A DNA stretch of 64,000 nucleotides from Candidatus Omnitrophota bacterium (GCA_020058285.1 JAGVEL010000017.1:2027-66026), one strand, 5' to 3'. Counted from the stretch's first letter, positions 6,212-64,000 are shown. The notes: a model not told the origin generated them from the sequence alone. A program made the numbers and translations.

Positions 6212-6212
6212 A

Positions 6213-27034: not shown

Positions 27035-27057
27035 TAATTGACCTCCGTTCTTTTTTC

Positions 27058-28928: not shown

Positions 28929-28931
28929 CGT

Positions 28932-30263: not shown

Positions 30264-30272
30264 CTTTTCTCC

Positions 30273-32693: not shown

Positions 32694-32739
32694 GCTTAAT
32701 TTCTCCTCTCCTTTTATATGATATTAAGCTGCTTACACA

Positions 32740-32774
32740 CCTGCCTGCCGGCAGGCAGGGATTTTTTAAAAAAG
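32740..32774 (+). terminator. GC-rich perfect palindrome cctgcctgcc/ggcaggcagg followed by GATTTTTT (hairpin/terminator-like; orientation ambiguous)
   Basis: Seen directly in the GH94 operon leader region. On the plus strand it looks like an intrinsic terminator. It could instead be an operator or leader structure. Confidence 0.35.
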
Positions 32775-32852
32775 ATTACACCGATTAAAGCATAAATCGA
32801 TAAAGCAAAACTTTACCACAAATCAATATGCGGGTCAAGAAATTTCGTTTGC

Positions 32853-33600: not shown

Positions 33601-33620
33601 ATCCGCCCTCCTTTAATAAG

Positions 33621-33776
33621 CACATAACTTACGGAGCAATTGATTATCTTTGGCGACGTAAGTTATAAGTGCGAATTAAATCCAGCACTTATTTTACTGC
33701 AAGGCTTATAATTAAAATAAGTGCTGGGTCAAATTCAGACATACAACTTATGTCGTTGAAAACTCCATAAGTTGTG
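33621..33776 (-). repeat. Structured intergenic repeat element, copy 3 (hairpin A cacataacttacg..cgtaagttat, box GCGAATTAAATCC, hairpin B ccagcacttatttt..aaaataagtgctgg, hairpin C acaacttatg..cataagttgt)
   Basis: Seen directly. It lies 3' of the PilZ-ROK gene stop. Confidence 0.6.
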
Positions 33777-33839
33777 TCTTTATTTGACCTCCTTTCTTTA
33801 TTATATCTCTAAACGCAAATATTGTCTCTTTCTAAAATA

Positions 33840-35238: not shown

Positions 35239-38200
35239 TTATTTAAATACCTCTGGAAATTTCTTTTGCAACCATTCTAATATATAGTTACTAATTGCTC
35301 CTGCCTCAATAATTCTCTTTATTTTTTGTATCCCAAATGATTGTAGTTCTTTTAATATTTCTCCTCTATGGTAGGATACATCGCCATAATATTTTATATC
35401 CTCAATTACTTCAAACATTTCTTCTTCGGAAAGATGTCCACATATTGGCTCTACTTTTTCGTCACAGTTTAGAATAAAACCCACGATAATTTTCGAAACA
35501 TTATTGCCTTGTTTATATTCCTGTCCTCTATATTTATCTAATCGCAATTGGCCAAGGCAATAATGAATCATATCCACAGTTAAATCAATTGGCAATTTTG
35601 ATAAAATATAATCGAAGCTGCTCCTTTCTCTTCCAAGTAATGACAAGGCCTCATATATATTATATGGATCAAGATAATAATAAGCTATGAAGTCATCTTT
35701 TAAATCCTCGATGTAACCACTATCAAATCCATCTCTCTTGGAGAACAAATTGTATACCCATGTTGAAACATCCTTTTTAATTGCAGATTTCATTTTCTCT
35801 AAACTCGGCGCTCCCCACTTCCAGGGATTTTCTCTCCAGCGCGGATGCACATATCCTCCAAGCTCATCCTTATCAACAAGCTCCTGTAAGTTTGTCCTTC
35901 TTATATAGTATGTATCCAAGTATTCTTTCCATTCTTTATCGGTTCTATCATCAAAATCCATTAAGATATCTTTTAATGTGTTCCTTAAAAGATGATAAAT
36001 ATCCTCCTCTGGAGGCAATTTATATTCAAATACCAAATCATATAATCGCCCAATCCAGCTCTTATTTTTGAGTTCCCTATTGAAATATGTATATAAGGGC
36101 TTAGCATAACGAGTTATCTCTACATCATCTATATGCCCTGGCTCTACGTAGGTAATGCTATAATGTACAGTAACCTCATTAAAATCGTTTCCCCATCTTT
36201 CTCGGCCTGTTTCACATACAGCTATTATTATGAAACCGTCCTGCTCTAACTTCTTTTCTGCTTCGCGCTCTTGATCACATGGAACGCGTAAAAAGTGGCA
36301 ATCTCCCTTTATTTCCCGATATAATTCGAAACCTAAGAAATTAATCTCTAATCTTAATAATTTCCTTAATATATCTTCATTAGGGATTTCGTTCAAGGCT
36401 AGCTGCCACGTCTCTTTGAGTTTCTGATCGCTAAGTCCATTGTTTCTGGCTAATTTAAACCATTCAGAGGCTAATTCATTAATATCAAAAGTGCTGCTGA
36501 ATAAATCTTGAGTTAGTTTTAACCGATCCTCAGCCTTAAAATCTTCTGAGCCGAGCAAAGTTATCCATTCTGGAGATTTTAAACTAATCTCATCCAAGTT
36601 AGCTTGCCAATACAATACTTTTTGCCCATGCCTATGCTTCAAAGAGCCTTCTCTAACCAACCTAAACCCTAACTGCCTATAAAAATCCTTAACTAAAGCA
36701 TTCTTACTTGTAGGAATATATGTTCCTTGTAAAGTCGTAACGCCTTGCTCTCTAAGCTGATTTACTACATATGCCATAAATGCGTGTTCTACAGTTAAGC
36801 CAATTGCCCGGCAACTTAAACAAAATGTATCAATCTCCCACTCACAAATATTATAACCCCTGCCTAATCTCATTACACCGACTATGCCTGCATTCCCAAA
36901 CTTATCTATCAATTCTAAGGTAAATATTTTGGCCGTTAAAGAACCTACGCCTCTTACATCCCATTTCACCACTTCTTTAGAACGCTCTCCCGGAGTTAGA
37001 TTAAACTGATTTGTTCTTTGGGTTAATTGGAATATGCGTGATATATATGGCAGGTTTTCTTGGCCTTCCCGGATAATTATCTTCATATCTAAAGAACGAT
37101 AATATTCCTCTAAAGAAACAGCCTGTCCTTTTAATTCGTCCCTTTTGCTTTTAGCGAGATAGAGTTGGGTTCTACGCCTATCCTCCTCAGTGATTTTCCC
37201 CTCAGGAAATAGCCCCGAGCCAATTAATAATTGTATTCTTTCTATTGGCCTATCCGGAATATCTGGCGTGAAAACCTCGGGATAGCTTAATCTTATTAAC
37301 TCTCTTTCATGCGGACTGTCATCTATGAATACCAAACTATCCATACCAATATTTAACTCCTCGGCTATCTCCCTTAAATTTGTAGCCTTATCCTGCCAAT
37401 TGGCTTTAATAATCGTAAAGTCATCTTTTCTTAGAATCATCTCAGGATGTCTTTCTAATACCCCGATGACCTCTTCGGGATTATTCTTGCTGTTTATGGC
37501 TAAGATAATGTCTCTCTCTTTGAGTGCCCTTACTGTTTTTTGAAATTCCTTATGCTCTTCTGTTATCTTTATCCCGTTAAATCCGTCTTCTCCTACAATG
37601 CCAGACCACAATATACCGTCTGCATCCAGAACGAGGCATTTTTTGTTATTTTGCTGTACTGGCGAACTGACGGTTTCATCAAGATTTTCTATCGGCAACA
37701 CCCCAGCCGCAACTCCGATATCAGATTCGGCAGGAATAGCCTCGAATGTTTTAAATACCTCTGGAAAATTTTGCTTAAGCCAATCTAATATTTCTTGGTC
37801 TTCGCCAAAAATCTTTATAAGTCGCTCTTTGCCGATTGCCAACAATTCCTTCTGGATTGCACTTCTTATTGCTAACATTTCTTTGCGCCAGAGTTCTGAG
37901 GTGTAGTTTTTCTTAATAATTAATTCTACTAACAGATCGCTAAGATACTGACTCATTGACACCTGGCTAAATTCAGCCCTTGTTAGCCAGACAATAGGAA
38001 TATTCCCTTCAATCTTCCGGTCCCAACTTGGCTTTATGTTCATGGAATAATTAAACATATCAGCCGCTAAATCCGGTGCTAAGTACGAAGTAATCTGGCC
38101 GAATTTTTCAGAAATACCGAAAACATTTGAAAAGATTTTATAGGCATTTTCAGGGTCCATATAGTAATATGCTTTTAATATTTGGCTGGCATTTTGTGCT

Positions 38201-59200: not shown

Positions 59201-62200
59201 TTCCTATCTAATTTGATTGCTTCCGGAGATAAGCCAAAATCAATAAATCTACGTGCTGTTTGGTCATCTTTTAAATTATAAATAAAATAAGTCAATACTA
59301 ACGGCAGGATTGAAAGAAAGGTAAGTAATAATGGACTGTGGACTGTGGACTGTGGACTGACTGTCCCGAGCAATGTCGAGGCATGGGCTGAAGAAAAGCC
59401 GATTAAGGACAAAATAGTAAATATACCAGCTACAAGCAAGAAGTTAAATCTGGGCAGAGTGCCGCTTAAAGGCGAGCTGGATTCGGATTGTTTACCGGGT
59501 TCATATAATACTTCTACTCTAGACATCCATGCAGGAAATAGCTTGCCTGGAAATAGATCCATTAAAAATGTATTTCCATCGGGTTTAGCCCGTATTAGCC
59601 GCACTCTGATATCTCTAACGACAGCTCTTACCATATTAGATGACCGGAGATTATTAACCTCATCTATATGAGCTAGATAATATCGTATGCCTTGATCTTG
59701 GAGATATCTTAGGCTGACCTTGAACAGATTATATCCGATATTATTAGAAACATGCGTTGGGCTCCTAGCGATATCACCTTCGGCAAAGTCCTCAATTCTT
59801 ATATCTGGGGACAATATAGAGCAAAGTTCGTTAAACATAAATTTTCTAAGCATCATCAAAGTACGAAGGCCTACAATATTACCTCCGTCTCTGCTACGGA
59901 CAGCCCAAGCCTTGATCATATCTCTAATTCGGTCGGTTAAATCAAAATTTATAAGGTCAAAACTTATAACGGCACGAAAGTCAGATGCCGCACTTTCAGT
60001 TGACAATCTCAGAGCTTCTTCGGCAAACCGAGAATAATCTGAAGATTCTGCTGTCACAATCTCAAATTGCTCACCGATTGAGCCAGATTGACTACCCAAT
60101 GGTGAACTCTGCATTTCATTTAAAAACTCTAATACCCCCTCAGGGCCAGGGACTTTTGTATATGTAACCTTTTTGCCTAAGGCCGCAGATAGGTTTTGTT
60201 CAAAGCCAGCATAGATTGCGCTAACTTCAGGTAAAGCCAACATACTATGGTCGTTCAAACTATCGCCGAAGATTATTGTTTTCTTTAGGGGAATATTAAG
60301 CCGCTGAATTAAACTTAAGACAGCCTCGCCTTTAAGCACAACAGCAACATCAACCACTTCCGGAGTATAAAAGATATGTAATGTTTCATCTCTAATTTTC
60401 TCGTTTAATTTCTCAGCGATTTGCTTTGCATGTACACCTAACACTGAATCGGTAATCAATAGGCTGACCACGCTGTCTCTATTATCCAGTAATTTTAACC
60501 GACCATCCTCAAAATATTTCCGTAATCTAAGCTCATCAATTACATCCATCATCTGGCTTAGTATATGTCTCCTAGCCTCAGAGTCTATGATATTGCTGTT
60601 ATTATTATCAAATGTTAACTCCCCATTTCCGTCAAAATGCCAGGAACAGCCCCCGGTATCGGTAAAAAGGTGGATTTTATGAGCGTATTTTATTCTGGTC
60701 TGCTTATCAATATACTTAACTAACAATTCATCTAAACCAGGTATGCCGTTGACATTATGCATGCTTCTGCCGGTAATAATTGCTATATCCTTGCCTAATT
60801 TTAGTAATAATAACAAAGCCAACATTGGCTTAGAAATAGCTGTCCTGAATTTTCCTAAGGTGTCATCATAATCAAATATGAACAGCTTAAATTGCGATAA
60901 TTTTAACTTGTTATTTATTAACGAGAGAACGCTCAGTAATCTCTTAAGTTGGAGTAGAATGTTGTGGCTGCTGGAATCAGATTGACTAATTAATGGCGAG
61001 CTGGGTAAATTTTTCCTCGCCGCAAGATAATACATATTGCAAAGTCCTTCCGAAACAATTACTGGCTCGTCTTGGCCTACCTCAACTCTAAATTTCATTA
61101 TGGACTCCGCCTCTAAGCCTGCCAGCCTACATTCCTTTGCAACATATTCAGGCGGAGCTCCGCGTATATGAAACCTGCCAATTAATTTTTCAGGCCACAA
61201 ATAATCTAAAATAACCACCATACCATTGTTGTTTAAGACCTGGCTGACTTTAGATAAAATCTGACTAACCTCTCTCATATTGCACATAGATTCCTGAAAA
61301 AGCACAATATCAAATTTTTCAGTATCAGTGTTAACTTCTAATACTTCGAGTAAGTCAGCGGCATTTCCAACATAAGCTTTTATCCCAGCCTCTTTAGCTA
61401 TCTGCACCATCTGCTCAGCTATATCAATACCTACAATATCGTGTCCATCTTTAACTAATTCTGCTTCAACCGGCGCCTTACCCATTCCCAGAGATAGAAT
61501 CCTGCTGGGTTTATTTTCACCAATACCATTTATTTTTTCTTTTACCCATCTTCTAAACCCGATATTAAGCGTAATATATGTTCCTAAAATTGCCCATCTA
61601 AAACCAGACTTATCATAAACTAAATCCATCTGGTATTTATAAGCATTCTCAATTGCCTGTTCTGAGTCTGTTGTTCCAAGCAAAGCATTGATAAAATCCT
61701 GATTAAATCTAAACAATAATTGCCCGGTTACGCCAGCGACTTCAACTAATAACGAAAAATTTAAACGCTCTGGGTTATAAAAGTCTCTTATATAAGCATC
61801 TAAAAAGATTAAAAATCTGATTAATTCTTCTTCGGACATGGGGCAACGCCTGATTGCAAACATATTTATTTTTAATATTACTAATGTCTTATTATCTAAC
61901 TTATGAAACGGCTCGCTTTTTAAAATTTCTTCACAAAGATTATTTTCGCCATGCAAAACATTCCAACTATCTATATAAGAGTTATCCAATAAATATAAAA
62001 GTTGCGTTAGTAAGGTGTTTTTGTTTTGCGCTAAGTCAACTACGTTTATCGGCGAAGAAGAAATGAGCAGAGTTTTTGTTTTAGGGGTATTTTCAGGTTG
62101 TAATTGTTGTTTCAGTGCACTAGGTTTCGGGTAAGTGACTTGGATTGGTGATGAGGAAAGGAAGGAATTTTGACTATAGACTATTGACCATGGACTATTG

Positions 62201-64000
62201 ACTGATTCCGGCGGCGCCTGAGCAACCTGTGACCATGCCTGGATATAGGCAATAATCTGCTCTTTGTAGGTTAGGAAGTAATTCAAGAATAAAAGCGCAA
62301 AGAAAAACGCAAGAGCAATATTGCCGTCATTAATAACAAGTCCGGCACCTGGCACAAAATATACTACATTGTTCTGACCTTCAGAATGTTGTTGGCCAAT
62401 CAACTCTCTAGTTTTATAATCTGGCGAAAGGCCAAATCTAGTGAGAAGTTCTTCTGCCCTTTTAGCTTCCTGAGTCTCAAAAAGTTCTGGTCTTTTCTCG
62501 TTAAATCTCAATATCTTGTTTACTAAATCATCATAAGCGCCCTGCTCTAACTCAATAATCGATATATATAATGAATGACTCTCGCAACTACACCTTAAAA
62601 TTACCCGATTAACAGTAAAGTAATGTTCGACGAACTTAAGCCAATCAAAATCATAGGTGTTTATTTCTGTTTGCGATATGAAAGCCTTAAATGAATCCTG
62701 GATAATACTGCGTTCATTCTCGGCTATATGTGATATTTTTTGATCTTTAAAATTATAAGCAATGTCCAAATCTGAAGTTGCCAAAAAGCCATTGTAAGTA
62801 TTAAGCAGCATACTCAAGGCTTGGCTGCCAAATATACAAAAATCTAAAGATGAATCTATCTTTTCCTCAATAAGTTTTAGAGCCTCGACAAAAAGCGGGT
62901 GTATGGTAATTGTGTGCATTAATCCCATACCCTCAACCGGACATTGTAGATGATAACAATTATTTTTTGGATCAAGCTGCAAAGAGTCTTTAAAAGGAGT
63001 AAGTGTATGGCCTATATCTTTATCATAAAAATCTGCCTGGAACTCAAAATCAATCTTTCGTTCATTAACTAAAAACGCCGTAATCATTTTGGCTATTCTG
63101 TTACAATCGCTCCTGGTTAAAGAAAATCCTGTAATGAATTCTTCGCTGTCTAAAGAAACATCTTTAAAATCGCTCTTTAAATGAAGTAATTTACTGCGCA
63201 AGCTAAGAAGTGCGCTATCGCATAAAATATCAGGCTGATTTTTATAAAGCTCAGCTAATAATGCAACGCCTCGTTTATGATTATGGTTTATTAGTAGCCC
63301 GATTACATAACTCTCGCGGATTGTTCTAGTTAGAAGCGTATCGTCTTCTTTAAAAAGCGCACCCTGTAAAGTCCGTAAAAGATAATGAGGAGATGGGAGC
63401 CATATCTTTATCTTATCTATCTGCGCTAATACCACAATACTCTCTATCGCAACATAGAATTTTCTGGCTCCTATCTCAAGATTTAGTATCTGGTCAAAGA
63501 AATTGCCTACCTCATCATATTTTAAATTCAATTCTTTGCTCAATATCAAATATTCAGCTATTTCGTGGAATATTGCTATGGGCTGATTAAGAAGCGATTT
63601 ATGGAGGGCAACTAGGTTGGGATTGGCAAAACCAAACAAGTCTTGGAAAGGTGTTAAATAGGCATAAAATTCGGGTGGAGAATCTTCCAAGGCCTCTAAA
63701 AATGCTTCTAATAGCTGTTTATGAGCAGGAAAATCTACGCTTAACCTATGCAGCGCGTCAGCTAAAAGTTTATTATCTATTTTCTCCAATTCTAATTCAC
63801 CTAAAAAGCTGTTATTCTCTGTTGAAACAACCTGAGCAAATTTTTTCCCACCTCTATCTATTATCTCGCTTACCTTTGCGCGTTTTCCTATCTGTGGCAG
63901 GTCGTTATTTAAGTAATCCCCAATTTTCCTGAGTAACTCCAAAGCTGCAATATCTCTAGCCTCGCTAGCCGCATTTTTCTTCGAACTTCTTGCTATCTGC
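35239..64000 (-). CDS. Giant multidomain membrane-associated protein; over 9,580 codons in the window, 5' end beyond the window edge
   Basis: A single uninterrupted minus-strand ORF runs 35239..64000; hand translation past the TTG at 63942 shows no stop up to position 64000. Recognisable modules are listed as separate features. Confidence 0.85.
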   Translation of the reverse strand, partial: QIARSSKKNAASEARDIAALELLRKIGDYLNNDLPQIGKRAKVSEIIDRGGKKFAQVVSTENNSFLGELELEKIDNKLLADALHRLSVDFPAHKQLLEAFLEALEDSPPEFYAYLTPFQDLFGFANPNLVALHKSLLNQPIAIFHEIAEYLILSKELNLKYDEVGNFFDQILNLEIGARKFYVAIESIVVLAQIDKIKIWLPSPHYLLRTLQGALFKEDDTLLTRTIRESYVIGLLINHNHKRGVALLAELYKNQPDILCDSALLSLRSKLLHLKSDFKDVSLDSEEFITGFSLTRSDCNRIAKMITAFLVNERKIDFEFQADFYDKDIGHTLTPFKDSLQLDPKNNCYHLQCPVEGMGLMHTITIHPLFVEALKLIEEKIDSSLDFCIFGSQALSMLLNTYNGFLATSDLDIAYNFKDQKISHIAENERSIIQDSFKAFISQTEINTYDFDWLKFVEHYFTVNRVILRCSCESHSLYISIIELEQGAYDDLVNKILRFNEKRPELFETQEAKRAEELLTRFGLSPDYKTRELIGQQHSEGQNNVVYFVPGAGLVINDGNIALAFFFALLFLNYFLTYKEQIIAYIQAWSQVAQAPPESVNSPWSIVYSQNSFLSSSPIQVTYPKPSALKQQLQPENTPKTKTLLISSSPINVVDLAQNKNTLLTQLLYLLDNSYIDSWNVLHGENNLCEEILKSEPFHKLDNKTLVILKINMFAIRRCPMSEEELIRFLIFLDAYIRDFYNPERLNFSLLVEVAGVTGQLLFRFNQDFINALLGTTDSEQAIENAYKYQMDLVYDKSGFRWAILGTYITLNIGFRRWVKEKINGIGENKPSRILSLGMGKAPVEAELVKDGHDIVGIDIAEQMVQIAKEAGIKAYVGNAADLLEVLEVNTDTEKFDIVLFQESMCNMREVSQILSKVSQVLNNNGMVVILDYLWPEKLIGRFHIRGAPPEYVAKECRLAGLEAESIMKFRVEVGQDEPVIVSEGLCNMYYLAARKNLPSSPLISQSDSSSHNILLQLKRLLSVLSLINNKLKLSQFKLFIFDYDDTLGKFRTAISKPMLALLLLLKLGKDIAIITGRSMHNVNGIPGLDELLVKYIDKQTRIKYAHKIHLFTDTGGCSWHFDGNGELTFDNNNSNIIDSEARRHILSQMMDVIDELRLRKYFEDGRLKLLDNRDSVVSLLITDSVLGVHAKQIAEKLNEKIRDETLHIFYTPEVVDVAVVLKGEAVLSLIQRLNIPLKKTIIFGDSLNDHSMLALPEVSAIYAGFEQNLSAALGKKVTYTKVPGPEGVLEFLNEMQSSPLGSQSGSIGEQFEIVTAESSDYSRFAEEALRLSTESAASDFRAVISFDLINFDLTDRIRDMIKAWAVRSRDGGNIVGLRTLMMLRKFMFNELCSILSPDIRIEDFAEGDIARSPTHVSNNIGYNLFKVSLRYLQDQGIRYYLAHIDEVNNLRSSNMVRAVVRDIRVRLIRAKPDGNTFLMDLFPGKLFPAWMSRVEVLYEPGKQSESSSPLSGTLPRFNFLLVAGIFTILSLIGFSSAHASTLLGTVSPQSTVHSPLLLTFLSILPLVLTYFIYNLKDDQTARRFIDFGLSPEAIKLDRKNPGDYIINTRDLEVTGEYDPKRLWVMDRLRQDDGVRKIVSLGDLLARPLSLDGDLKFRLLTDGERGNNNNGVYLGFVKGIGKPVVVEKLGQASEYSIKKAIYLTQFTDIIGVGPKFCDIISLGNNELAYVMQAVGGRFLSASELEALSAEGASVNILKTRLLEYGLSCTPQCLVSSDNTLAVVIDSGDLYLKREFHQGLPLDLALNKILEQKRSASSPILVSSPISIFTKIKNSKLARLAIVLAGLSCILYFSGAFSWYWSLSNVNILAFIVLGSAIITVIFDFITVYLRTNPTPYNILRIPLELAIGAVNGWIFRIMQLGIENYFPKTGEYGLARSFGLWSAAAVNFVVYCVYKKFEQRLLKTESKVDLKIIIDILAVEALLLFKYPIAQSLPDNVAFTFLQFMNIPSLAVMIWGLNLGRPFLNLYDKLHLEKPINLLRSIIKTKKAHLVIVGAIVALISISLIWPEFAKERLIELGGNHDYHLSWRNIGLFIGFPAVILSLISYLSLFKIKRLENITKIFTNDRLREKLDLYYFTLVTLFLTVAIYSNIAVYILENHTLYLTGCADAEPKSAIALVLLWLIYKWPGIFSRQEHNNFNQHHLFGNRKLAIISLSFACLLLLYLLFITPSFLDQLPFLSLNPSGTLLARFDINYRPSTIDYGPLLAGFGFIAVGLRNNSWVAKMWLGLRLTGRIVLNCLSVSIEEFERLLDREFGDGFAASQFVCKHRLMYDPGLGEWVEPTDDDIASIRAFSRKVDEVYYRYEKKFRWTSPYFSWVAGWLAASCIHFKYNFSVYISAILKIIGGAVLGVGILCLAFYLWYLISLNYGLSLSAVALAKAGTVDQGLIMAGFGFLGMTKANRFPKTGQEVKVIYYWASGIDVETVRQLSQRFPDVEQIYLQDPAFSRDIGSPEKIPSQWGFLYGRVKELIEKVKEQFHLQKEHFHGFHVISKETSNPLNIILEGRQISQLKTLPFRKPTVHIVKVPGDNSALSLFVSFYSHLIRLMRIGDYLFIHKSYLRTDILDDALSGLEGIDAKEFGMKEPKIVQQNWICDLTLADVPKGEDELPKIKTKRLPYVRSGWVVYRKQKKSGPDFVNRKGREDRFERVIIILALGFGIFCFISSICNLLTMDHACLPDRQGLTLAGFGFLALFRKSRERAEEHDPNVISATPAEISSSPITSPETGWGLFKALINKFPWKILGGVFLGIGILCLMPYLGHLISIPALLGFSEGGNCGPLTMDHGPMLAGLGFLGMFALYEQFLRLFSPAEPPFQASKGFERMHLIKIEKRHKSDPPLSVELKFQPLEGLHRFISDFYYAYYNEMAWGVLKDEDVIATYPFGNCLAVAFQGERQGEIITGLTHISQRIGALKENYWAVKSLIDYLKNNLGLERVRIFLQSNSEDNKYLIDLENEVSQCPDTEIFVLPARIYPLYKNQITYLLVTNSAALFVTSGESLCLFWNDSKDAIRDDIGHHAQDLSQLHNEVNLDNPRFRIGGEIQGEPVRTLKDSSLDLEDVSKATTSSSSINYPEPAQRLSKTLIAKLPDESLSGNVVGQPWRTYEANVLEIGYGRGKFLVQQARQNPDKLFVGIEQPPGSPFSSAGEKLPTRIEKKKIKNIKIVYGDVRELVSQLFRRDQLEKIYIISPWFGEGKTLERFRLFPPQEAYGNDFAQALFDRLKVGGEIQILVVDAEYTDEITGHFNSIKGEKQIFVTSDIPDYIVTEMSIFQAYFLRIVKTAPGNTLAQTSSSPISIFARVKNNKWIKIIAKIFTRECLKANIIYLIYKFRKVITINFNNKTPVVLIFGLPASGKTTLGQSLSKKLGIPFISTGELLRKEVNARQALLAHRTPSRVMDKYLYWVLVRSGINLLDISKGLIIDVSPSSSDNLKTLYSFINYMGFNIQAVIYISVNRTIAQNRWLKRRRYADRRQAERIFDRRAKTLCDVVIPELEEFNEQGKLIRINGNKRLPADGEITEILKEKGLPSTPTKTSSSPIGYPEKETKDLVGQGNDYLSVLERLTCLADSQYTTEINQSLKKLILKAKEGAKINNRTEEFINILKLYLDGTNYEIVEFVRKQLISLRSILKQELTHSYAKPKTRIELLRQHRASLDKDIVLFIDPAEDIILYRIGKDDKGKTPVNLINETAEKIMDSENHKSLLIVGLPSAKDGRLPRIFDRKLYVPFAFAKTAVLVTKTPYGQKVFRKVSVLEDRRYIERALKVIDDLKGREIDWRELEGYGIMLRSLFGVRRVSGTIKVDKCGNVTRENKSISFSELPDELLKYIEEERIYPELFDKHGKLLCTFSDSSSLADDLEENIAVLTSHERGKYRFGRSLHFIGGSYDVVISFNKTIWPLQAICAGDIDNFNEKINKFIQVELQRDIGENDDFLFTCSPTAIDKVLAREFKDIADGSILRVKYLRVLSNRKLNFNGEHPVDTKFVQPGDYVVAWFIKDGVKPLLLQYMKIEDYEAQEFLKAAVAESSKVYDGRGNLRMTFCHHRSTLEEIRKITSADGQGAAKLIWSTDGDGCWRFRIDTKNKKSRQYLRYRIGVKNQPLVVWTNPVTGYPELAITLEDLRNLTTSSIVYKLSNNNSRGSKNTELVSRLNSELKQNEKLLQEISGYPLEKIFAKYPHLTRAVLYRRDNSTNTLCGNFTGKFRKVSAHQLRSDNRKNSATSRKIMQIIYSVLSKVGIRPADLEAALEDRRNSINWLMVRYTQPDTIQAARLAILYLICNADATPIDVEQDVINGWIDEWREKYTNIETVLTDFAELERKLRELEEDVGAKPVVNSIVHTEKRTIILDILSEIWRYIPKTRIERMLDFPRVLIGKFEQEKQRRAQLCIWARLDEPCREDSDVDYKILALTLKEKLVGIISDDCLEAERLSGQEDSASVFSARRIMSELTAVLELDKKLGTGFISKELRTEITTMTSHVAGVLSTRRAERVEKDTQNRNNHDSNGSIDLTHSRNNFHHSLPNPWESEIGSLEGRNSRNLRRYNQRFEQGNNILSASSPLRPGGELFGFSLVAKETNPDWQVRQISSSSPVDAEGPENPEFKVFYTSEESPKDNPFKAQIEELLDKARNNIIQSLDDFPGSKEEPYLVPVLQGGNFTHPHWQEVFKPIFEHLDLLNGFDLVGSLNKTLKDMTEFIKQDLNIILVGGPRYIHFHKNNQFVIAYLDIEQKTLYISLKFFNSRYLLRHTSLVLQFIAEAVSRIKFSSRENIPPEIKQLITMLDLPDSLIKTINYYLYQQYDYDDKALRDLRTQTQVAQTAGYLQRCNLSPTQLFLDKFREGARFLSIVFAPLSSELYLLLKDIASAIPDLSQQGKLTHLVFYYHEEIAKIQKAVNRYIEADKDEIDKRRKELLSLIDETLKYRTGFLKISLPAEFEQYEQEYNKDAEDLRQKASRAYMDVFDKVRRANRTNNKHPIKIIFIDGDSSAQVAAKKLRRIIFNHNPKACILIHGNAYHLLKGPIFEEHFGASRPIKRINKQGLLKYQLQDIIGTSGFQTIFYTTLQRTLSDSANPEDSLTSAARDWHFGSFALDRIENSPVAEELVAYWLWQMKYGEVADGVIFALDRRDDGGEPETVWTGITSDSDKQPKPVPVSTPIASEIPANITHIFNEKGYRIASSPITSSTIKDLAEAINEYTSKAAVSVDLSQQGKVRLISGDVELAEITITNEHPFYLVANRLNIRVINFSREVEQWIVEKLFMTLQNEHRQGVSRPKRRYSDLSPKWTAARKQAGTGFAYDVLINPEEKDYGSPEWDAKEVELEIQIIKYRFLSVLKDDTHFYKRDIDALLRPEGTQLKPKSLFRIVNAFNDWFGKIWDPVFCKHLAWEHYEKNRLILIDYIKGLLPYLEAYDNEHKTDLTTFAKISLSLLERLGKSRISESEYEEFIRKAKALSMPESSSPIEPPDSRQGGGKNHRANGNRRKTRRYHFEDFLYIDSRKFLEIYPLIIEAIRGKALSEDEMKWLKGFARLFDETGKMSVTSKHQDALTFADLRWVLEYGLDYRQDESLEEEKDFRFPYICQYTLFGVSEICARNSIAHKWLTTNEPGEKNWHNFPVIKILGVEFILDVAYEQFYDLYWQNQLNCKIVLLPYALVKQGLFKDRSYMYTDWPEITRINLSPTGAVESYEIRDRHKDGRVLLRGDYLTGSEFILSLVSGGESTIYLQGDSHDSAITIKDDYEGNLAFIVGKNLVGSNKINTEGIERIEIWRATDDRCSLCIIRKTNKKDLPPLNPRQGGAVSSPVESRSISCYLLTKYLLVNLETRMAYFGLSDELKERVRNILGDIKSLGVFRDGEYVYNPLLLNLFRKLKIDMPLAYLYAQAYALAKTTPHLNDLDEAAVDDCIEKILKLKPRFIRSLFCEYFPYLVKLEDKITVDSEFIATHVGKENFIRQLIGSFFTQNLEFTNSASTNFTLLITGYKDEIKKLQKIINQFFSELGQKDYLDELLKQARELRHNKKGILGFSGRLTDLETSFEEQLGVLGVKTVEDKFKKQELESLAEAIERLPLYKERAAKLNSYEDVAIKVFLTDPDEAVQQCSETQKQKLSTAITATSLELISYWQVAYAVILANLAHFDQETFKFFKERVPILLPQDQHKGKKKGERRDLRPILIGRNGLARVINEYFVFGVDPNDIYLDGWGASVEKEDCRRVGVNEPYLKSLDQSIDFFNEYRETEAYKKFGLGPRIINSIFPIIEAFRKIDQREQGRAKCVDFALLYAALLVALDIVSQDKIFIIGNAGHLFVYIDEDDGYLVSNKLIFDKEMIASGDRRAEEALRTCTGSAVSNIFTFKGFYDAYRGMNNENNGFSSIPGQELKRILEKIDTFFGFPLRKYNLSDVKYVDSPAIMPDLKQFINPERLDNGAIKLGEFRVEEFKQEMYRLAQQYRETQPDSPLCFLAYAARDLLNVEYPEVFAIANNRDWLVREAAEKIATSIDDAIKYAREGLKLGKAFLARLKIPRPDEVIRFGTNEPAHLVPVLYGLIYHSPHISQAEKQEMYYVYADDDSFVYVNGKFISTKTFEVTNEIPKNITHIFNEKGHYESIASSPVPEKSSYSQRDEGLSQQGCIVKATISTAAGFLEVIYSQDGAENNFYELWLNGERIDQNNYGHPGIFYDNPAGFCFIVREDTRGGILEVPYLSLESQYQWLGIGSALVSWLSQQASEKDINTLLSGKTKNINAIKIFLGALEEGSRKFEIEVLTIFGHTFWRRISYRKLLSLFEKEPYKNFMRISGRPRTSSPVTQTAVAALFANLKLFLKGQSYLKEVPKTIKAIIFIGVIVTSVAFAFVSIWIDTLSQSAWFLFFIQFLPYAASALILCAAASLFGQWRKGAVATWQLIKNYTIVQFGIEAYWYCIFVGLSLTYDKLSIDRPLHISFSVLTIVIFNLINASLTSSLIEVLNYPANLLEFFLRKHVYKLTLEQSRREKKENLWKLTWFSLKWWWVVGLVIFSDVNITFFDTTIHLKPTEWVFVVVIATSILEFLFSKKKANILDGRLIQQNNEVYSKMPVIGCDVASMPQQIHYQQDDGQGNDLSTSSPLKSKGSFEHYMGNKVINSFSSQQGYFTLEKISSTGYQTILKIEAKLLAVALDVIQRKRIAMTGEGNLLFLAGILRGDYHTNIYSVLEYSFKARQMLEQDKWWQVEDISDIEIVNLHRMPKVNLCKIFGFLESMAAKGLTWFDFIREYPIEVLKLTDDTFFILDGSHRLETAILLGERKIRAKVYSIKQGSEIGSRVIEFAAKRRQELNKQYQFDTAQRRFTDDADKIIKISFGTRQLESPKLCQYLWSTDQPKEIAIFYFPEIFYKAGYIKPGRINTHSPAFAYFKAFILACLGSGSIEDDILVSVIKDIRRKQKTVSSPVRQLNNSGQRHYHRENADPWSGVFESEDLEEDWLGYHHKSRNSSRARHYQQGKQSRRSARAKGKSQQETQFDMVAVTGTLASLLRHGAIFYDFSLDEFGFVSLETVLPILQQEYNGLEKKDLIDLAENDPDGRFEIKQNRIRARYGHSIKVLPVGEPIEPPEFLYHGTPTANTQAVLCSGLKSMRRQFVHFSLDPDKALSIALRRARNVTALKIKAREAHESGVKFYREADVFLAGFIPGNFIVATELTAARSAADIQHGCVNLNESAIIRRFAKEDGYVVLDTQMANKQTLLRIDERLFRVIHAAEYCLSQEMAVPIEANLLIMTDMFREIPIGDLRIAGPDYIVKARHLTEDQKWWQEVGLKEIPIAEIQRMHSSHLFRYLRFLDYLCDNKLFWEDFIDSYPIDVFQLPWGSYFTLDGMHRLDLACLVGAQTITSRIYHNKIDDPNGHLMSGWMVGYAKELEKEYRFSNFKERFIHQLYALTPLLNAFPQFSSYEHKGDRLTMTFNFPALPAIPLLPIENNIEFIYLVSLAQNITGMGSERFVNRLLEEWRKINKQIQGSSPIGNDDTNPKSSSAKRFWPGSGDLKSPQSTVNGPRLTETRQHSPSARCGLSGICRDEPQRADGSEFGLGRVAHYRHNTSEENPRVGNNELVRQEQSILEELKNQLGKAHVSASLVSSLFDRLKSDKKVTEKAVILSALIKNLLIRFTRRRRYQNFEAEDISKPIYIAEALIASPDIIERAGELLSLTSKLKMTKGVRRELGESIKKAEEGKGGRFKRSVFDMICIDAKNHKANIGKAFVVDCINDYYVLLSCGHLSKSARTGILKINEKAKKTVGRTFIVMDNESDDISVLLMHKRDVNRKVFKDGKLVPIKLLLTPPARRFAWVIKGSNHDVSVGHLVLTGDKVVLLGANTYRGDSGAPYLIRIGKGYFVIAVHGYPGPVGRRLTHKIFAEMNIALQGKESNFSLVVSNDSFIETIREFLQKQLQNDKGVKCATLHSNSLSLGDGVRKHIHPHGKEKGRGGKAYCQNPKGEQGFGEFNNPRTTVAHSLTNRVFGRDEPQRADGSEFGLDRVAHWPGNYQSSSPLADDDVTKYMHPYWEEKGWKWEKPSLTDIRFITIRFLDPIQFVYSCWPRTPSEEGELHPKRAQNASQILKAYYYMDPENAYKIFSNVFGISEKFGQITSYLAPDLAADMFNYSMNIKPSWDRKIEGNIPIVWLTRAEFSQVSMSQYLSDLLVELIIKKNYTSELWRKEMLAIRSAIQKELLAIGKERLIKIFGEDQEILDWLKQNFPEVFKTFEAIPAESDIGVAAGVLPIENLDETVSSPVQQNNKKCLVLDADGILWSGIVGEDGFNGIKITEEHKEFQKTVRALKERDIILAINSKNNPEEVIGVLERHPEMILRKDDFTIIKANWQDKATNLREIAEELNIGMDSLVFIDDSPHERELIRLSYPEVFTPDIPDRPIERIQLLIGSGLFPEGKITEEDRRRTQLYLAKSKRDELKGQAVSLEEYYRSLDMKIIIREGQENLPYISRIFQLTQRTNQFNLTPGERSKEVVKWDVRGVGSLTAKIFTLELIDKFGNAGIVGVMRLGRGYNICEWEIDTFCLSCRAIGLTVEHAFMAYVVNQLREQGVTTLQGTYIPTSKNALVKDFYRQLGFRLVREGSLKHRHGQKVLYWQANLDEISLKSPEWITLLGSEDFKAEDRLKLTQDLFSSTFDINELASEWFKLARNNGLSDQKLKETWQLALNEIPNEDILRKLLRLEINFLGFELYREIKGDCHFLRVPCDQEREAEKKLEQDGFIIIAVCETGRERWGNDFNEVTVHYSITYVEPGHIDDVEITRYAKPLYTYFNRELKNKSWIGRLYDLVFEYKLPPEEDIYHLLRNTLKDILMDFDDRTDKEWKEYLDTYYIRRTNLQELVDKDELGGYVHPRWRENPWKWGAPSLEKMKSAIKKDVSTWVYNLFSKRDGFDSGYIEDLKDDFIAYYYLDPYNIYEALSLLGRERSSFDYILSKLPIDLTVDMIHYCLGQLRLDKYRGQEYKQGNNVSKIIVGFILNCDEKVEPICGHLSEEEMFEVIEDIKYYGDVSYHRGEILKELQSFGIQKIKRIIEAGAISNYILEWLQKKFPEVFK
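36500..36950 (-). other. Giant ORF module: GNAT-like acyltransferase fold following the FkbH-like domain
   Basis: The HAD-IIIC plus GNAT arrangement is typical of FkbH-like proteins. The segment is GNAGIVGVMRLGRGYNICEWEIDTFCLSCRAIGLTVEHAF. Confidence 0.35.
37100..37650 (-). other. Giant ORF module: HAD-IIIC (FkbH-like) domain
   Basis: LVLDADGILWSGIVGEDG (FkbH signature xLDxDxTLWxGvxGEDG)...AINSKNN...FIDDSPHE. Confidence 0.55.
38411..38475. repeat. Intragenic direct repeat, copy 1 (encodes RDEPQRADGSEFGL); 40 nt identical to 39732-39795
   Basis: ctaagccaaattcagaaccatctgctctctgcggttcatc is identical in both copies. The copies flank the protease module. Confidence 0.8.
38790..39400 (-). other. 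Giant ORF module: chymotrypsin-fold serine protease (GDSGAP catalytic-Ser motif)
   Basis: CGHLSKS (candidate His), ESDDISVLLM (candidate Asp), and TYRGDSGAPYLIRIGKGYFVIAVHGYPG (GDSG motif at about 38876-38893). Confidence 0.5.
39732..39795. repeat. Intragenic direct repeat, copy 2
   Basis: See copy 1. Confidence 0.8.
40250..40650 (-). other. Giant ORF module: ParB/sulfiredoxin-like domain 2 (DGxHR motif)
   Basis: YFTLDGMHRLDLACLVG at about 40370. It is homologous to the module at 42000-42400. Confidence 0.4.
40900..41440 (-). other. Giant ORF module: Tpt1/KptA RNA 2'-phosphotransferase domain
   Basis: LASLLRHGA...IRARYGHS...FLYHGTPTANTQAVLCSGLKSMRRQFVHFSLDPDKALSIALRR...KFYREADVFL matches the KptA signature (LRH..., RA.QGHS, HGT, R..VHLS). 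Confidence 0.6.
42000..42400 (-). other. Giant ORF module: ParB/sulfiredoxin-like domain 1 (DGxHR motif)
   Basis: FFILDGSHRLETAILLGE, at about 42100. Confidence 0.4.
42700..43500 (-). other. Giant ORF: third transmembrane cluster
   Basis: AIIFIGVIVTSVAFAFVSIWI...WWWVVGLVIFSDV hydrophobic helices. Confidence 0.5.
53250..53800 (-). other. Giant ORF module: P-loop NMP-kinase-like domain (Walker A GLPASGKTT)
   Basis: VVLIFGLPASGKTTLGQSLSKKLGIPFISTGELLRKE, with downstream lid-like and Arg-rich segments. Confidence 0.55.
54000..54560 (-). other. Giant ORF module: TrmB-like (m7G-type) SAM methyltransferase fold
   Basis: VLEIGYGRGKFLVQQARQNPDKLFVGIEQ...KIVYGDVRELV...KIYIISP. Confidence 0.45.
55400..59500 (-). 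other. Giant ORF: two polytopic transmembrane regions containing repeated (T/S)(M/I)D(H/Y)GP(M/L)LAG(F/L)GF(L/I) helix motifs
   Basis: There are long runs of hydrophobic segments. The motif recurs at about 57211, 55801 and 55471. Confidence 0.5.
60170..60900 (-). other. Giant ORF module: HAD-superfamily phosphatase (Cof/IIB-like)
   Basis: Motif I FIFDYDDTLG, motif II IITGRS, motif IV GDSLNDHSM. Confidence 0.6.
61050..61520 (-). other. Giant ORF module: class I SAM-dependent methyltransferase domain
   Basis: Motif I ILSLGMGKAP, then VGIDIAEQMVQIA, then FDIVLFQESMCNM, then NGMVVI. Confidence 0.55.

What the first reader, a model, noticed from the sequence alone, without database searches (positions are those of the whole stretch)
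35239..64000. ORF over 28.7 kb encoding a membrane-anchored mosaic of enzymatic modules (giant gene, 5' end outside the window)
The open reading frame runs uninterrupted from 35239 to the window edge (over 9,580 codons) on the minus strand. In AT-rich DNA, a frame that long without stops is essentially impossible by chance. It carries at least 12 recognisable catalytic modules plus three polytopic membrane regions. The modules are two SAM methyltransferases, two HAD phosphatases, an FkbH-GNAT pair, a P-loop kinase, Tpt1, two ParB/Srx-like domains and a serine protease. Genes of this size are rare and are mostly reported from Omnitrophota and a few other lineages. Their functions are essentially uncharacterised.
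Basis: partly seen in the sequence, partly recalled or inferred. Interest (0 to 1): 0.85.

Follow-up and report, generated by a model that had tools for sequence, protein, structure and literature searches.

The report
Giant multi-enzyme membrane gene, Omnitrophota
This is a real, very long bacterial gene (over 9,586 codons, start not in view) from an Omnitrophota chromosome that strings at least nine enzyme modules and about 14 membrane helices onto mostly unrecognisable sequence; it is a new example of an already described class of giant genes whose function is still unknown.

Summary
The minus-strand frame is stop-free for 9,586 codons (35242-63999, stop at 35239-35241), and its codon usage looks coding in every 1,000-codon tile.

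They are a class I SAM methyltransferase, a Cof-type HAD phosphatase, a TrmB-like methyltransferase, an adenylate-kinase-like P-loop domain, a ParB/Srx-Tpt1-ParB/Srx triad, a trypsin/3C-like serine protease with an intact His-Asp-Ser triad, and FkbH. These modules cover about 19% of the residues. The N-terminal 800 aa and a central 3,571 aa have no detectable relative in 5.8 billion proteins.

Gene order shared with Omnitrophota MAGs places the window in that phylum, where such genes are common and documented.

One new point emerged. In 14 of 48 independently assembled relatives, an open frame of at least 1,200 codons sits at the same place, upstream of a PilZ-GH94-sugar-transporter cluster. 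Thirteen of these frames were compared with the window's protein. None shows any similarity to it, and they carry different enzyme sets.

Verdict: a genuine new member of a known kind. Its function is unresolved; most likely it is a membrane-tethered enzyme array, possibly self-cleaving.

The parts
35239..64000 (-). Giant ORF. The stop codon is at 35239-35241, followed upstream by 9,586 sense codons that are still open at the window edge. The 5' end is not in view.
61555..63999 (-). aa 1-815. Orphan N-terminal part of the visible fragment, with no domain match and no homolog.
61168..61554 (-). aa 816-944. Class I SAM-dependent methyltransferase (Methyltransf_11/25/31; CpaM/UbiE-like).
60190..60882 (-). 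aa 1040-1270. Cof-type HAD-IIB phosphatase, with motif I (FDYDDT) and motif IV (GDSLND) intact.
55438..59442 (-). aa 1520-2854. Main membrane region with 11-12 hydrophobic helices: 1520 and 1555; then 1839, 1867, a weak one at 1972, 2048, 2092, 2138 and 2209; then 2399, 2707 and 2800. It includes a duplicated 56-aa unit that contains a helix, and a weak FtsX-like hit at aa 2051-2115.
54025..54522 (-). aa 3160-3325. TrmB-like methyltransferase (Methyltransf_4), with motif I VLEIGYGRG.
53302..53808 (-). aa 3398-3566. Adenylate/NMP-kinase-like P-loop domain (GLPASGKT).
43420..53292 (-). aa 3570-6860. Orphan central region with no domain match and no homolog. The AlphaFold model of aa 3570-4569 was unusable.
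43027..43401 (-). aa 6867-6991. Second membrane region with three strong helices, plus a weak one at aa 7061.
41944..42561 (-). aa 7147-7352. ParB/Srx-like module A, with the DGSHR motif starting at aa 7295.
40906..41421 (-). aa 7527-7698. Tpt1/KptA RNA 2'-phosphotransferase domain, with the Arg-His-Arg-Arg motif contexts present.
40216..40839 (-). aa 7721-7928. ParB/Srx-like module B, a paralogue of A at 32-34% identity, with the DGMHR motif starting at aa 7871.
38680..39324 (-). aa 8226-8440. Trypsin/3C-like serine protease with His8269, Asp8302 and Ser8372 (GDSGAP). It is flanked by a duplicated ~90-aa element (aa 8023-8115 and 8483-8555).
36658..37644 (-). aa 8786-9114. FkbH domain (HAD-IIIC half plus GNAT-like half).
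35242..36657 (-). aa 9115-9586. C-terminal region. aa 9115-9367 is 46% identical to the 1,489-aa Omnitrophota protein P0151. aa 9378-9586 is a paralogue of aa 8543-8750, so this ~210-aa module flanks FkbH on both sides.
23169..35147 (-). Conserved downstream neighbourhood on the same strand: three PilZ-domain genes (33840-35147, 33193-33600, 32853-33203), a GH94 phosphorylase (30273-32693), a sugar ABC transporter (27058-30263), a GPH symporter (25508-27034) and a GH2-like/TPR protein (23169-25481). This block is collinear with relatives that carry a different long ORF upstream.

Best explanation
This is a genuine giant gene on an Omnitrophota chromosome. Its visible 9,586 codons encode one polypeptide that belongs to the documented class of membrane-anchored, multi-enzyme giant proteins of that phylum.

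Shown:
- The frame is open and looks coding along its whole length.
- It carries nine recognisable enzyme modules, all with their catalytic motifs intact.
- It has about 14 strong hydrophobic helices in three regions.
- About 80% of it has no recognisable domain. The two long orphan stretches that were searched (the N-terminal 800 aa and a central 3,571 aa, together 46% of the fragment) have no detectable relative.
- The modules that do have relatives are shared one at a time with other long Omnitrophota proteins, or with ordinary-sized genes. They are never shared collinearly.
- Relatives carry an equally long but unrelated ORF at the same chromosomal position.

Inferred mechanism:
- The protein is inserted in the inner membrane through its helix clusters.
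- It holds a set of cofactor-dependent enzymes at the cytoplasmic face. These use SAM, ATP and NAD+, which are available only inside a cell. One group appears to act on nucleotides or RNA (TrmB-like methyltransferase, NMP kinase, Tpt1, ParB/Srx-type phosphotransferases or nucleases). The other appears to act on phosphorylated metabolites (Cof-HAD, FkbH).
- The embedded trypsin/3C-like protease may cut the chain into separate products.
- The gene grows and changes by gain, duplication and replacement of whole modules.

The physiological role is not known. Because the content turns over so quickly between relatives, an interaction function (with a host, prey or phage) looks more likely than housekeeping metabolism.
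For: - **Open frame and coding signal:**
- **Domains above curated cut-offs:** Methyltransf_11, Hydrolase_3, Methyltransf_4, ADK, PTS_2-RNA and FkbH TIGR01686 at 274.6 bits against a cut-off of 146.65. PDB sequence matches to adenylate kinases, Tpt1 and the HAD protein BF1531.
- **Catalytic motifs intact:** P-loop, DxDxT/GDxxND, DGxHR twice, the Tpt1 Arg-His-Arg-Arg contexts, and the protease His/Asp/Ser.
- **ParB/Srx:** the two best PDB profile hits are SbnI and sulfiredoxin.
- **Protease:** nearly all PDB profile hits are chymotrypsin-fold proteases, including calicivirus 3C-like enzymes.
- **Membrane helices:**. The positive-inside rule favours a cytoplasmic N-terminal enzyme block.
- **Omnitrophota origin:** the best MnmG match is an Omnitrophota MAG, and a nine-gene collinear block is shared with Omnitrophota MAGs.
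- **Sharing is module by module:**. P0010 and P0012 are whole-contig fragments from Omnitrophota MAGs. FkbH plus its extension occurs in an ordinary 1,489-aa gene in another Omnitrophota genome.
- **Internal duplications:**
- **Positional counterparts:** 14 of 48 related loci have an open frame of at least 1,200 codons upstream of PilZ/GH94. The 13 that were extracted show no similarity to this protein by BLASTP or phmmer. The four that were scanned carry different domain sets or none.
- **Homology breakpoint:** nucleotide homology with the nearest relative ends at the ORF's 3' boundary.
- **The class is described in the literature:** PMC10066038; 10.1101/2023.11.21.568195; 10.64898/2026.06.07.730766.
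Against: - There is no evidence of transcription or translation for this gene.
- The start of the gene, and therefore any signal peptide, SecA-like domain or C39 domain, is not visible.
- Topology is unresolved. The best-scoring helix model puts the TrmB-like and kinase modules outside the cell, and only models that include two weak helices keep all enzymes inside.
- About 80% of the residues have no annotation. Both AlphaFold models were unusable, with pLDDT 33.7 and 34.7.
- The ParB/Srx and protease assignments rest on motifs and marginal profile E-values (0.015 to 0.043, and about 1e-3).
- Nothing shows that the protease acts on its own chain.
- An in-frame assembly misjoin cannot be excluded without reads.
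Confidence: 0.7

Rival explanations
1. It is a self-processing polyprotein. The giant chain is a precursor, and the embedded trypsin/3C-like serine protease cuts it at linkers. This would release individual enzymes and membrane pieces, as viral polyproteins do. This is compatible with the best explanation. It is a rival only on whether the working form is one chain or many.
For: - The His8269-Asp8302-Ser8372 triad is intact and sits in the canonical motifs.
- The profile matches calicivirus 3C-like polyprotein proteases. They share the GDxGxPY...V(I/A)xVH signature, including the histidine that in 3C-type enzymes recognises the residue before the cut.
- The same module occurs twice in another long Omnitrophota ORF fragment, P0010.
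- West-Roberts et al. proposed that peptidase domains may cleave giant proteins.
Against: - E-values are marginal, at about 1e-3.
- No recurring cleavage-site motif was identified.
- The structure model failed.
- The protease could act on other substrates.
Confidence: 0.3
2. It is a host- or prey-directed effector carrier. The variable enzyme modules are cargo that acts in or on another cell, as in polymorphic toxin systems where a conserved delivery part carries a replaceable C-terminal part. Tpt1 (an ADP-ribosyltransferase-fold enzyme), the ParB/Srx nuclease- or kinase-like domains and the protease would be the active cargo.
For: - The long ORF is wholly replaced between relatives whose flanking genes are up to 91% identical at the protein level, and homology breaks at the ORF boundary.
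- Different enzyme sets occupy the same position.
- Omnitrophota are thought to be episymbionts or predators, and peptides from the V. archaeovorus giant protein rise on attachment to other cells (PMC10066038).
- Cofactors for these enzymes would also be available inside a target cell.
Against: - There are no RHS/YD, haemagglutinin or other known delivery repeats, and no known toxin family, in the Pfam or PADLOC scans.
- The downstream genes are PilZ and sugar-uptake genes, not an immunity gene.
- NMP kinase, Cof-HAD, FkbH and TrmB-like methyltransferase are not typical toxins.
- No secretion or pilus genes lie in the 35 kb downstream.
- Whether the N-terminal parts are conserved between relatives is unknown.
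Confidence: 0.2
3. It is an extracellular coat, adhesion or cell-wall-degradation protein, as proposed for Archaeovorin-type giant proteins. Most of the chain would lie outside the cell.
For: - The best-scoring helix model places the region after aa 2818 outside the cell.
- The neighbourhood contains GH94, GH2-like and sugar import genes, an association reported for giant genes.
- About 80% of the protein is unannotated and could hold adhesive folds.
Against: - No glycoside hydrolase, glycosyltransferase, lectin, dockerin, HEAT or other adhesion domain was found in 9,586 aa.
- The modules that are found need SAM, ATP or NAD+, which are not available outside a cell.
- GH94 enzymes are cytoplasmic phosphorylases (established knowledge of the family).
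Confidence: 0.1
4. It is an assembly or sequencing artefact. Several ordinary genes, or sequences from different genomes, would have been joined into one apparent ORF.
For: No reads or independent assembly of this organism were available, and the source contig was not found.
Against: - Sequencing errors break frames rather than remove every stop over 28.7 kb.
- Composition and codon usage are uniform.
- Any single misjoin would still leave multi-kilobase ORFs on each side.
- Twelve independent metagenome assemblies show open frames of 1,304 to 3,149 codons running to the edge of the retrieved sequence at the same chromosomal position.
- Giant ORFs in this phylum have been confirmed in complete long-read genomes (10.64898/2026.06.07.730766).
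Confidence: 0.03

Closest known systems
Multi-enzyme giant proteins of Omnitrophota (architectural class 1 and Pfam co-occurrence 'Module 1' of Nielsen & Lui 2026, bioRxiv 10.64898/2026.06.07.730766)
   Same: - Omnitrophota host.
- Very long single ORF.
- Many different enzyme families, with none dominating.
- Methyltransferase (PF08241), HAD and GNAT-type content.
- Transmembrane helices at about 2-3% of residues.
- A GH2-type neighbour.
- Unique sequence. In that catalogue, 80% of proteins of 10,000 aa or more are singletons at 30% identity.
   Different: - Only 9,586 aa are visible, just under that study's 10,000-aa threshold, and the full length is unknown.
- Tpt1, FkbH and ParB are not mentioned in that paper's main text.
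- No histidine-kinase ATPase domain was found in the fragment.
- No secretion or pilus genes lie in the visible flank.
Archaeovorin-type giant proteins (West-Roberts et al. 2023, bioRxiv 10.1101/2023.11.21.568195); type protein is the 39,678-aa protein of Velamenicoccus archaeovorus LiM
   Same: - Omnitrophota.
- Numerous transmembrane helices.
- SAM methyltransferases and a peptidase.
- Mostly unannotated sequence.
- A carbohydrate import system nearby.
   Different: - No glycosyltransferase, glycoside hydrolase, NUDIX, HEAT/TPR or SecA-DEAD domain was found in the visible 9,586 aa.
- The N-terminal region, where SecA-like and C39 domains usually sit, is outside the window.
- The recognisable content is centred on nucleotides, RNA and phospho-metabolites, not on carbohydrates.
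Stand-alone Tpt1/KptA RNA 2'-phosphotransferases (PF01885)
   Same: 35-42% identity to hundreds of ~180-aa Tpt1 proteins, a full-length match to the family model, and the catalytic motif contexts present.
   Different: Here it is an internal domain of a giant membrane protein, flanked on both sides by paralogous ParB/Srx-like modules. This arrangement was not found in the papers searched, and the other proteins that carry the ParB-like module lack Tpt1.
Viral polyproteins with 3C/3C-like chymotrypsin-fold proteases
   Same: A chymotrypsin-fold protease module is embedded in a very long multi-enzyme chain, with the shared GDxGxPY...VH signature.
   Different: The nucleophile is serine, not cysteine. 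The context is a cellular chromosome. Self-cleavage has not been shown, and the similarity is marginal (E about 1e-3).
Polymorphic toxin / Rhs-type loci with replaceable C-terminal cargo
   Same: The chromosomal position is conserved, but the C-terminal sequence is unrelated between relatives, with a sharp homology breakpoint at the gene's 3' end.
   Different: There are no Rhs/YD or haemagglutinin repeats, no recognised toxin family and no adjacent immunity-type gene. The variable part is thousands of residues long rather than 100-300.

Membership tests
Omnitrophota giant multi-enzyme membrane proteins (Nielsen & Lui 2026, class 1) | Encoded in an Omnitrophota genome | tested here: met
   The best MnmG match is an Omnitrophota MAG at 58% identity, and nine of the 80 loci returned are titled Omnitrophota. 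A nine-gene collinear block is shared with Omnitrophota MAG loci L010, L014 and L016 at 28-64% amino-acid identity, mostly 48-64%. No rRNA or marker-set classification was possible.
Omnitrophota giant multi-enzyme membrane proteins (Nielsen & Lui 2026, class 1) | Single ORF of at least 10,000 aa | tested here: inconclusive
   9,586 codons are visible and the frame is open at the window edge. The full length is unknown because the source contig could not be retrieved.
Omnitrophota giant multi-enzyme membrane proteins (Nielsen & Lui 2026, class 1) | Many distinct enzyme families along the chain, none dominating by copy number | tested here: met
   Nine modules from eight families; only the ParB/Srx-like module occurs twice.
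Omnitrophota giant multi-enzyme membrane proteins (Nielsen & Lui 2026, class 1) | [quoted passage not shown] | tested here: met
   About 14 helices with Kyte-Doolittle means of 1.86-2.77 and at most one charged residue. This rests on hydropathy only, no dedicated predictor was available, and the N-terminus is not visible.
Archaeovorin-type giant proteins (West-Roberts et al. 2023) | Glycosyltransferase, glycoside hydrolase, NUDIX and HEAT content together with methyltransferases and peptidases | tested here: not met
   Methyltransferases and a peptidase are present. No GT, GH, NUDIX or HEAT match was found in the visible 9,586 aa, even at E up to 2. The unseen 5' part could change this.
Archaeovorin-type giant proteins (West-Roberts et al. 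2023) | Divergent SecA-DEAD domain | tested here: inconclusive
   Not found in the fragment. Much of the gene, including its N-terminus, lies outside the window.
Tpt1/KptA (PF01885) | Match to the family model above the curated cut-off, with the catalytic Arg-His-Arg-Arg residues | tested here: met
   Pfam 90.2 bits against a cut-off of 26. The NCBIfam match has E = 1e-40 but is below the whole-protein equivalog cut-off, as expected for a domain. The contexts LRHG, RARYGHS and RRQFVHFS are present. Activity was not tested.
FkbH domain (TIGR01686) | Full-length match above the curated cut-off, with the HAD motif I aspartates | tested here: met
   274.6 bits against a cut-off of 146.65, covering model positions 3-321 of 323. 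LDADG is present. 46-53% identity to FkbH-type proteins.
ParB/Srx superfamily | DGxHR-type motif in a ParB/Srx fold | tested here: inconclusive
   The motif is present in both copies and is invariant across seven homologues. The best PDB profile hits are SbnI (E = 0.015) and sulfiredoxin (E = 0.043), aligned over the motif. The Pfam GmrSD_N hit is weak at E = 0.024. The fold was not modelled: the two structure jobs went to other regions and both gave unusable models.
Chymotrypsin-fold (PA clan) serine proteases | His, Asp and Ser in that order in the TxxH, DIxLL and GDSGxP contexts | tested here: met
   His8269, Asp8302 and Ser8372 are conserved with two homologous copies in P0010. The profile hits factor Xa and 3C-like proteases at about 1e-3, and there is a weak Trypsin_2 hit in the homologue. 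The fold itself was not confirmed.
Type I PKS / NRPS megasynthases (considered because FkbH is PKS-associated) | Carrier-protein, ketosynthase/acyltransferase or adenylation/condensation domains | tested here: not met
   None was found in Pfam or NCBIfam scans of all ten tiles.
Polymorphic toxin systems (Rhs/CDI type) | Delivery repeats (RHS/YD or haemagglutinin), a short C-terminal toxin domain and an adjacent immunity gene | tested here: not met
   No such repeats or toxin families were found. The downstream genes are PilZ-domain proteins.

The most novel reading that the evidence does not exclude
The site upstream of the PilZ-GH94-sugar-transporter cluster is a conserved 'slot' in Omnitrophota chromosomes. 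It always holds a very long ORF, but the enzyme cargo is replaced wholesale even between fairly close relatives. The giant protein would then be a diversifying, host- or prey-directed (or phage-directed) delivery platform, analogous to polymorphic toxin loci but with thousands of residues of swappable enzymes, and an embedded 3C-like protease would release the modules.
Probability: 0.2. Interest if true: 0.7.

Novelty: new member of a known kind. Interest (0 to 1): 0.45.

Why it matters
Giant genes of Omnitrophota are among the largest genes known, and nobody knows what they do. This example adds little to the fact that they exist, but it offers three concrete handles.

1. **Testable activities.** Its recognisable modules all have intact catalytic motifs and well-understood chemistries, so they can be expressed and assayed one at a time. 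The ParB/Srx-Tpt1-ParB/Srx triad does not appear in the papers searched.
2. **A test of self-cleavage.** The embedded serine protease has an intact catalytic triad, so a point mutation could show whether such proteins act as one chain or as a self-cleaving precursor.
3. **A place to study how they evolve.** The same chromosomal position holds unrelated long ORFs in relatives whose neighbouring genes are up to 91% identical. That gives a defined locus for asking how these genes change, and whether their content is under diversifying selection.

Tried and rejected
**Finding the source contig, to reach the 5' end.** Exact-protein look-ups of three neighbouring genes found nothing. Scans of GTDB genomes and JGI metagenomes with the N-terminal 800 aa found no relative.

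**Homologs of the unannotated parts.** The N-terminal 800 aa and the central 3,571 aa each gave no hit among 5.8 billion proteins. That tool requires shared 5-residue words, so very distant relatives may have been missed.

**Structure prediction.**
- Single-sequence AlphaFold2 on aa 7990-8790 and aa 3570-4569 gave mean pLDDT 33.7 and 34.7.
- Fold searches were therefore not run.

**Defence-system reading.** PADLOC gave only generic methyltransferase and P-loop matches.

**A recurring adapter or linker domain.** Iterative HMM searches from each internal repeat, and from a small element shared with P0151, found no further full copies. The only extra hit was a partial third copy of the helix-containing unit.

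**PKS/NRPS megasynthase.** Rejected, because there are no carrier, KS, AT, A or C domains.

**RNA genes and repeats inside the ORF.** No Rfam match was found in the ORF and no significant tandem repeats.

**Topology.** The positive-inside rule favours a cytoplasmic N-terminal block. It does not settle which side the later modules are on.

**Terminators and promoters.** The scan between the ORF and the first PilZ gene was uninformative in this AT-rich DNA.
Full report
**1. The observation**

On the minus strand there is no stop codon from 63999 down to 35242. That is 9,586 codons, ending at a stop at 35239-35241, and the frame is still open at the window edge. The next longest open frame in the window is 816 codons.

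With the local base composition, a stop is expected at about 7.2% of codons, so the chance of such a run is about 1e-309. The frame looks coding everywhere:
- Scored with the codon usage of the 23 neighbouring genes, the real frame is positive and the other two negative in all ten 1,000-codon tiles.
- Codon frequencies correlate with the neighbours at r = 0.92.
- GC at the three codon positions is similar to the neighbours.

GC content and skew are uniform. There are no notable tandem repeats, and there are no Rfam matches inside the ORF. The first in-frame start codon inside the window is a TTG at 63942. Because the frame is open to the edge, the true start is probably outside the window.

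**2. What the protein contains**

Pfam, NCBIfam and PDB sequence searches on overlapping 1,000-aa tiles give the following order, in residues of the visible fragment:

| Residues | Content |
|---|---|
| 1-815 | orphan |
| 816-944 | class I SAM methyltransferase |
| 1040-1270 | Cof-type HAD-IIB phosphatase (FDYDDT and GDSLND motifs) |
| 1520-2818 | 11-12 hydrophobic helices, including a duplicated 56-aa unit that contains a helix and a weak FtsX-like hit (E = 0.012) |
| 3160-3325 | TrmB-like methyltransferase |
| 3398-3566 | adenylate-kinase-like domain (P-loop GLPASGKT) |
| 3570-6860 | orphan |
| 6867-6991 | three helices |
| 7147-7352 | ParB/Srx-like module A |
| 7527-7698 | Tpt1/KptA (Pfam 90.2 bits; NCBIfam E = 1e-40) |
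| 7721-7928 | ParB/Srx-like module B |
| 8226-8440 | serine protease |
| 8786-9114 | FkbH (274.6 bits, cut-off 146.65) |
| 9115-9586 | C-terminal region |

Internal paralogy links three pairs of segments:
- The two ParB/Srx-like modules, at 32-34% identity.
- A ~90-aa element on either side of the protease.
- A ~210-aa module on either side of FkbH.

The recognisable enzyme modules cover about 19% of the residues.

**3. The two assignments that Pfam did not make directly**

*ParB/Srx.*
- Both copies carry DGxHR in the context (I/T)LDG(S/M)HRL(E/D)xAxLxG.
- One copy gives a weak GmrSD_N hit (E = 0.024).
- An alignment with five homologues keeps G, H and R invariant.
- A profile of that alignment finds SbnI (E = 0.015) and sulfiredoxin (E = 0.043) as the two best PDB sequences, both aligned over the motif.
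- Both of those are ParB/Srx-fold phosphotransferases, so a kinase-type activity is as plausible as a nuclease.

*Protease.*
- The single GDSGAP (aa 8370-8375) aligns with two copies of a homologous module in P0010.
- His8269 (YYVxxxxxH), Asp8302 (DIxxLL) and Ser8372 are all conserved, in the canonical order.
- One P0010 copy gives a weak Trypsin_2 hit.
- The profile hits almost nothing but chymotrypsin-fold proteases in the PDB, namely factor Xa and calicivirus 3C-like proteases, at E about 1e-3. It shares the GDxGxPY...V(I/A)xVH signature with them.

However, its 'second HAD' and 'GNAT' are the two halves of the FkbH domain, so the count is nine, not twelve.

**4. Organism and neighbourhood**

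The rest of the window is ordinary chromosome, almost all on the same strand. It encodes L25, PRPP synthase, GlmU, tRNA-Gln, a GHMP kinase, a split transketolase, HisG, MnmG, phosphoglycerate mutase, NrdJ, LacI and ROK regulators. Directly downstream of the giant ORF lie three PilZ-domain genes, a GH94 phosphorylase, a sugar ABC transporter, a GPH symporter and a GH2-like/TPR protein.

The best MnmG match among GTDB species representatives is an Omnitrophota MAG at only 58% identity. Several Omnitrophota MAG loci share a collinear nine-gene block with the window at 28-64% amino-acid identity, mostly 48-64%. I therefore place the window in a divergent Omnitrophota lineage. The source genome itself is absent from all collections searched.

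**5. Relatives of the protein**

The N-terminal 800 aa and the central 3,571 aa have no detectable relative among 5.8 billion proteins.

An exhaustive HMMER search with aa 7230-8429 found three kinds of hit:
- Thousands of ordinary ~180-aa Tpt1 proteins at 35-42% identity.
- A handful of proteins sharing only the ParB-like module. These are P0001 (7,631 aa), P0006 (2,233 aa), and P0002 and P0012, where the module sits next to a methyltransferase.
- P0010 (2,767 aa), which shares only the protease module.

P0006, P0010 and P0012 fill their whole contigs. P0010 and P0012 come from Omnitrophota MAGs.

The C-terminal 1,200 aa hit many FkbH proteins. The best is a 1,489-aa Omnitrophota protein, 46% identical over FkbH plus the following 270 aa. 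It is an ordinary gene next to rpsB-tsf-pyrH-frr. No retrieved protein shares more than one module with the giant.

The protein is thus a mosaic. Its modules exist elsewhere, in long or ordinary genes, mostly in the same phylum. The combination and the intervening sequence are unique.

**6. A conserved position with unrelated content**

A metagenome scan with the GH94 gene returned 48 loci. The closest, L082, has the same GC content as the window (39.6%). Its collinear flanks have the following protein identities to the window: ABC permeases 85% and 91%, binding protein 88%, symporter 83%, GH94 76%, GH2-like 72%, and the PilZ genes 65%, 43% and 54%. Nucleotide homology of 68-84% runs from window position 21687 to 35126 and stops at the 3' boundary of the giant ORF.

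In 14 of the 48 loci, a same-strand open frame of at least 1,200 codons lies directly upstream of the PilZ/GH94 genes:
- In 12 of them the frame runs to the edge of the retrieved 10-kb flank, with 1,304 to 3,149 codons visible.
- In L085 and L119 it is complete, at 1,619 and 2,081 aa.
- More distant loci have ordinary genes there.

I extracted 13 of these counterparts. None has any similarity to any part of the 9,586-aa fragment by BLASTP (E up to 1e-3) or by phmmer at maximum sensitivity (best E = 0.29). They share only a few modules with each other.

Their domain content differs:
- L082: LOG/SLOG domains.
- L083: radical SAM, Methyltransf_4, a class I methyltransferase and an HATPase.
- L091: HD, RelA/SpoT, LarA, alanine dehydrogenase and Methyltransf_28.
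- L084: nothing recognisable.

So independent assemblies confirm that a very long ORF belongs at this position, which argues against an artefact. They also show that its content turns over completely between relatives. One caveat is that a counterpart's C-terminus could be homologous to the unseen 5' part of the window's gene.

**7. How it most likely works**

*Shown:* the anatomy described above.

*Inferred:*
- SAM, ATP and NAD+ are available only inside a cell. The positive-inside rule favours a cytoplasmic N-terminal enzyme block in every helix model.
- The simplest reading is therefore an inner-membrane-tethered array of enzymes on the cytoplasmic face. This corresponds to the 'TM-only' architecture that makes up 46% of the Nielsen & Lui catalogue.
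- This is not secure. The best-scoring helix model has an odd number of helices and puts the later modules outside. Only models that include two weak helices keep everything inside.
- The embedded protease makes self-processing plausible but unproven.
- The module set suggests chemistry on nucleotides or RNA ends (TrmB-like methyltransferase, NMP kinase, Tpt1, ParB/Srx) and on phosphorylated metabolites (Cof-HAD, FkbH). No pathway can be assembled from them.
- The rapid replacement of content at a fixed locus fits an interaction function better than core metabolism. That is an inference.

**8. Comparison with what is known**

Giant ORFs over 20 kb are reported in most Velamenicoccia and Omnitrophia genomes. 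They are described as poorly conserved, with few annotated domains (PMC10066038). West-Roberts et al. describe Archaeovorin and dockerin types, their many transmembrane helices, and nearby carbohydrate import genes. Nielsen & Lui catalogue 916 long proteins, with these features:
- A 'multi-enzyme' class.
- A co-occurrence module of methyltransferase, HATPase, GNAT and HAD domains.
- 80% singletons at 30% identity.

The present gene fits the multi-enzyme class. It does not meet the Archaeovorin domain signature within the visible part.

Neither paper's main text mentions Tpt1, FkbH or ParB. No paper in the library describes a ParB/Srx-Tpt1 fusion. Synteny of giant-gene loci is not analysed in the 2026 preprint.

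**9. Verdict**

The finding is real and was correctly interpreted. It is a new member of a known kind. Its interest is moderate and rests on three features:
- The unusual ParB/Srx-Tpt1-ParB/Srx triad.
- The embedded protease with an intact catalytic triad.
- The conserved position with unrelated content across relatives.

**10. What failed**

Both AlphaFold models were unusable, so no fold searches were run. The 5' end could not be reached. PADLOC gave nothing specific. No recurring linker domain was found.

Noticed in passing
window 9524-10057 (+) and 10042-10605 (+): These are the only plausible plus-strand genes in the window. They are tandem paralogues of about 180 aa, each with a signal-peptide-like start, a shared motif (FAQTTEQLDITTYYPSPTGVYQQLRLFP) and a cysteine-rich C-terminal half. 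Neither has a Pfam match.
   Followed up: partly
window 10689-10982 (-) and 10906-11193 (-): A small overlapping gene pair (97 and 95 aa) lies in an otherwise gene-poor 2.2-kb gap. From memory it resembles a BrnT/BrnA-type toxin-antitoxin pair; this was not tested.
   Followed up: no
window 32853-35147 (-): Three consecutive PilZ-domain genes lie directly downstream of the giant ORF. The first (435 aa) also has a ROK/NagC-like region. PilZ genes recur between the long ORF and GH94 in many related loci. This hints at c-di-GMP control of this locus.
   Followed up: partly
L082 7045-10000, compared with window 32694-32852: The nearest relative has about 2.9 kb between the third PilZ gene and GH94 that has no counterpart in the window. 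Protein identity of the flanking genes falls from about 90% at the ABC transporter to 43-65% at the PilZ genes and then to nothing at the long ORF. In other words, divergence increases toward the giant gene.
   Followed up: no
window 21691-22839 (-): This 382-aa protein has no Pfam match, and its two halves both align to the same segment in relatives, so it is an internal duplication. It is conserved next to the GH2-like/TPR gene in nearly all related loci.
   Followed up: no
window 57655-57849 (-), aa 2051-2115 of the giant fragment: There is a weak FtsX-like permease hit (E = 0.012). The helix pattern fits a MacB/FtsX-type module: one helix, a ~160-aa loop, then three helices (aa 1867, 2048, 2092, 2138). 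The hit is below the curated threshold and was not pursued.
   Followed up: no
L081 (GCA_041650805.1, contig JBAZKM010000005.1) 10001-14470: In another Omnitrophota MAG, the FkbH module and its C-terminal extension sit in an ordinary 1,489-aa gene next to rpsB-tsf-pyrH-frr. The same small element...CD...L...G..I..V.E.GRE..., occurs twice in that protein but only once in the giant.
   Followed up: partly
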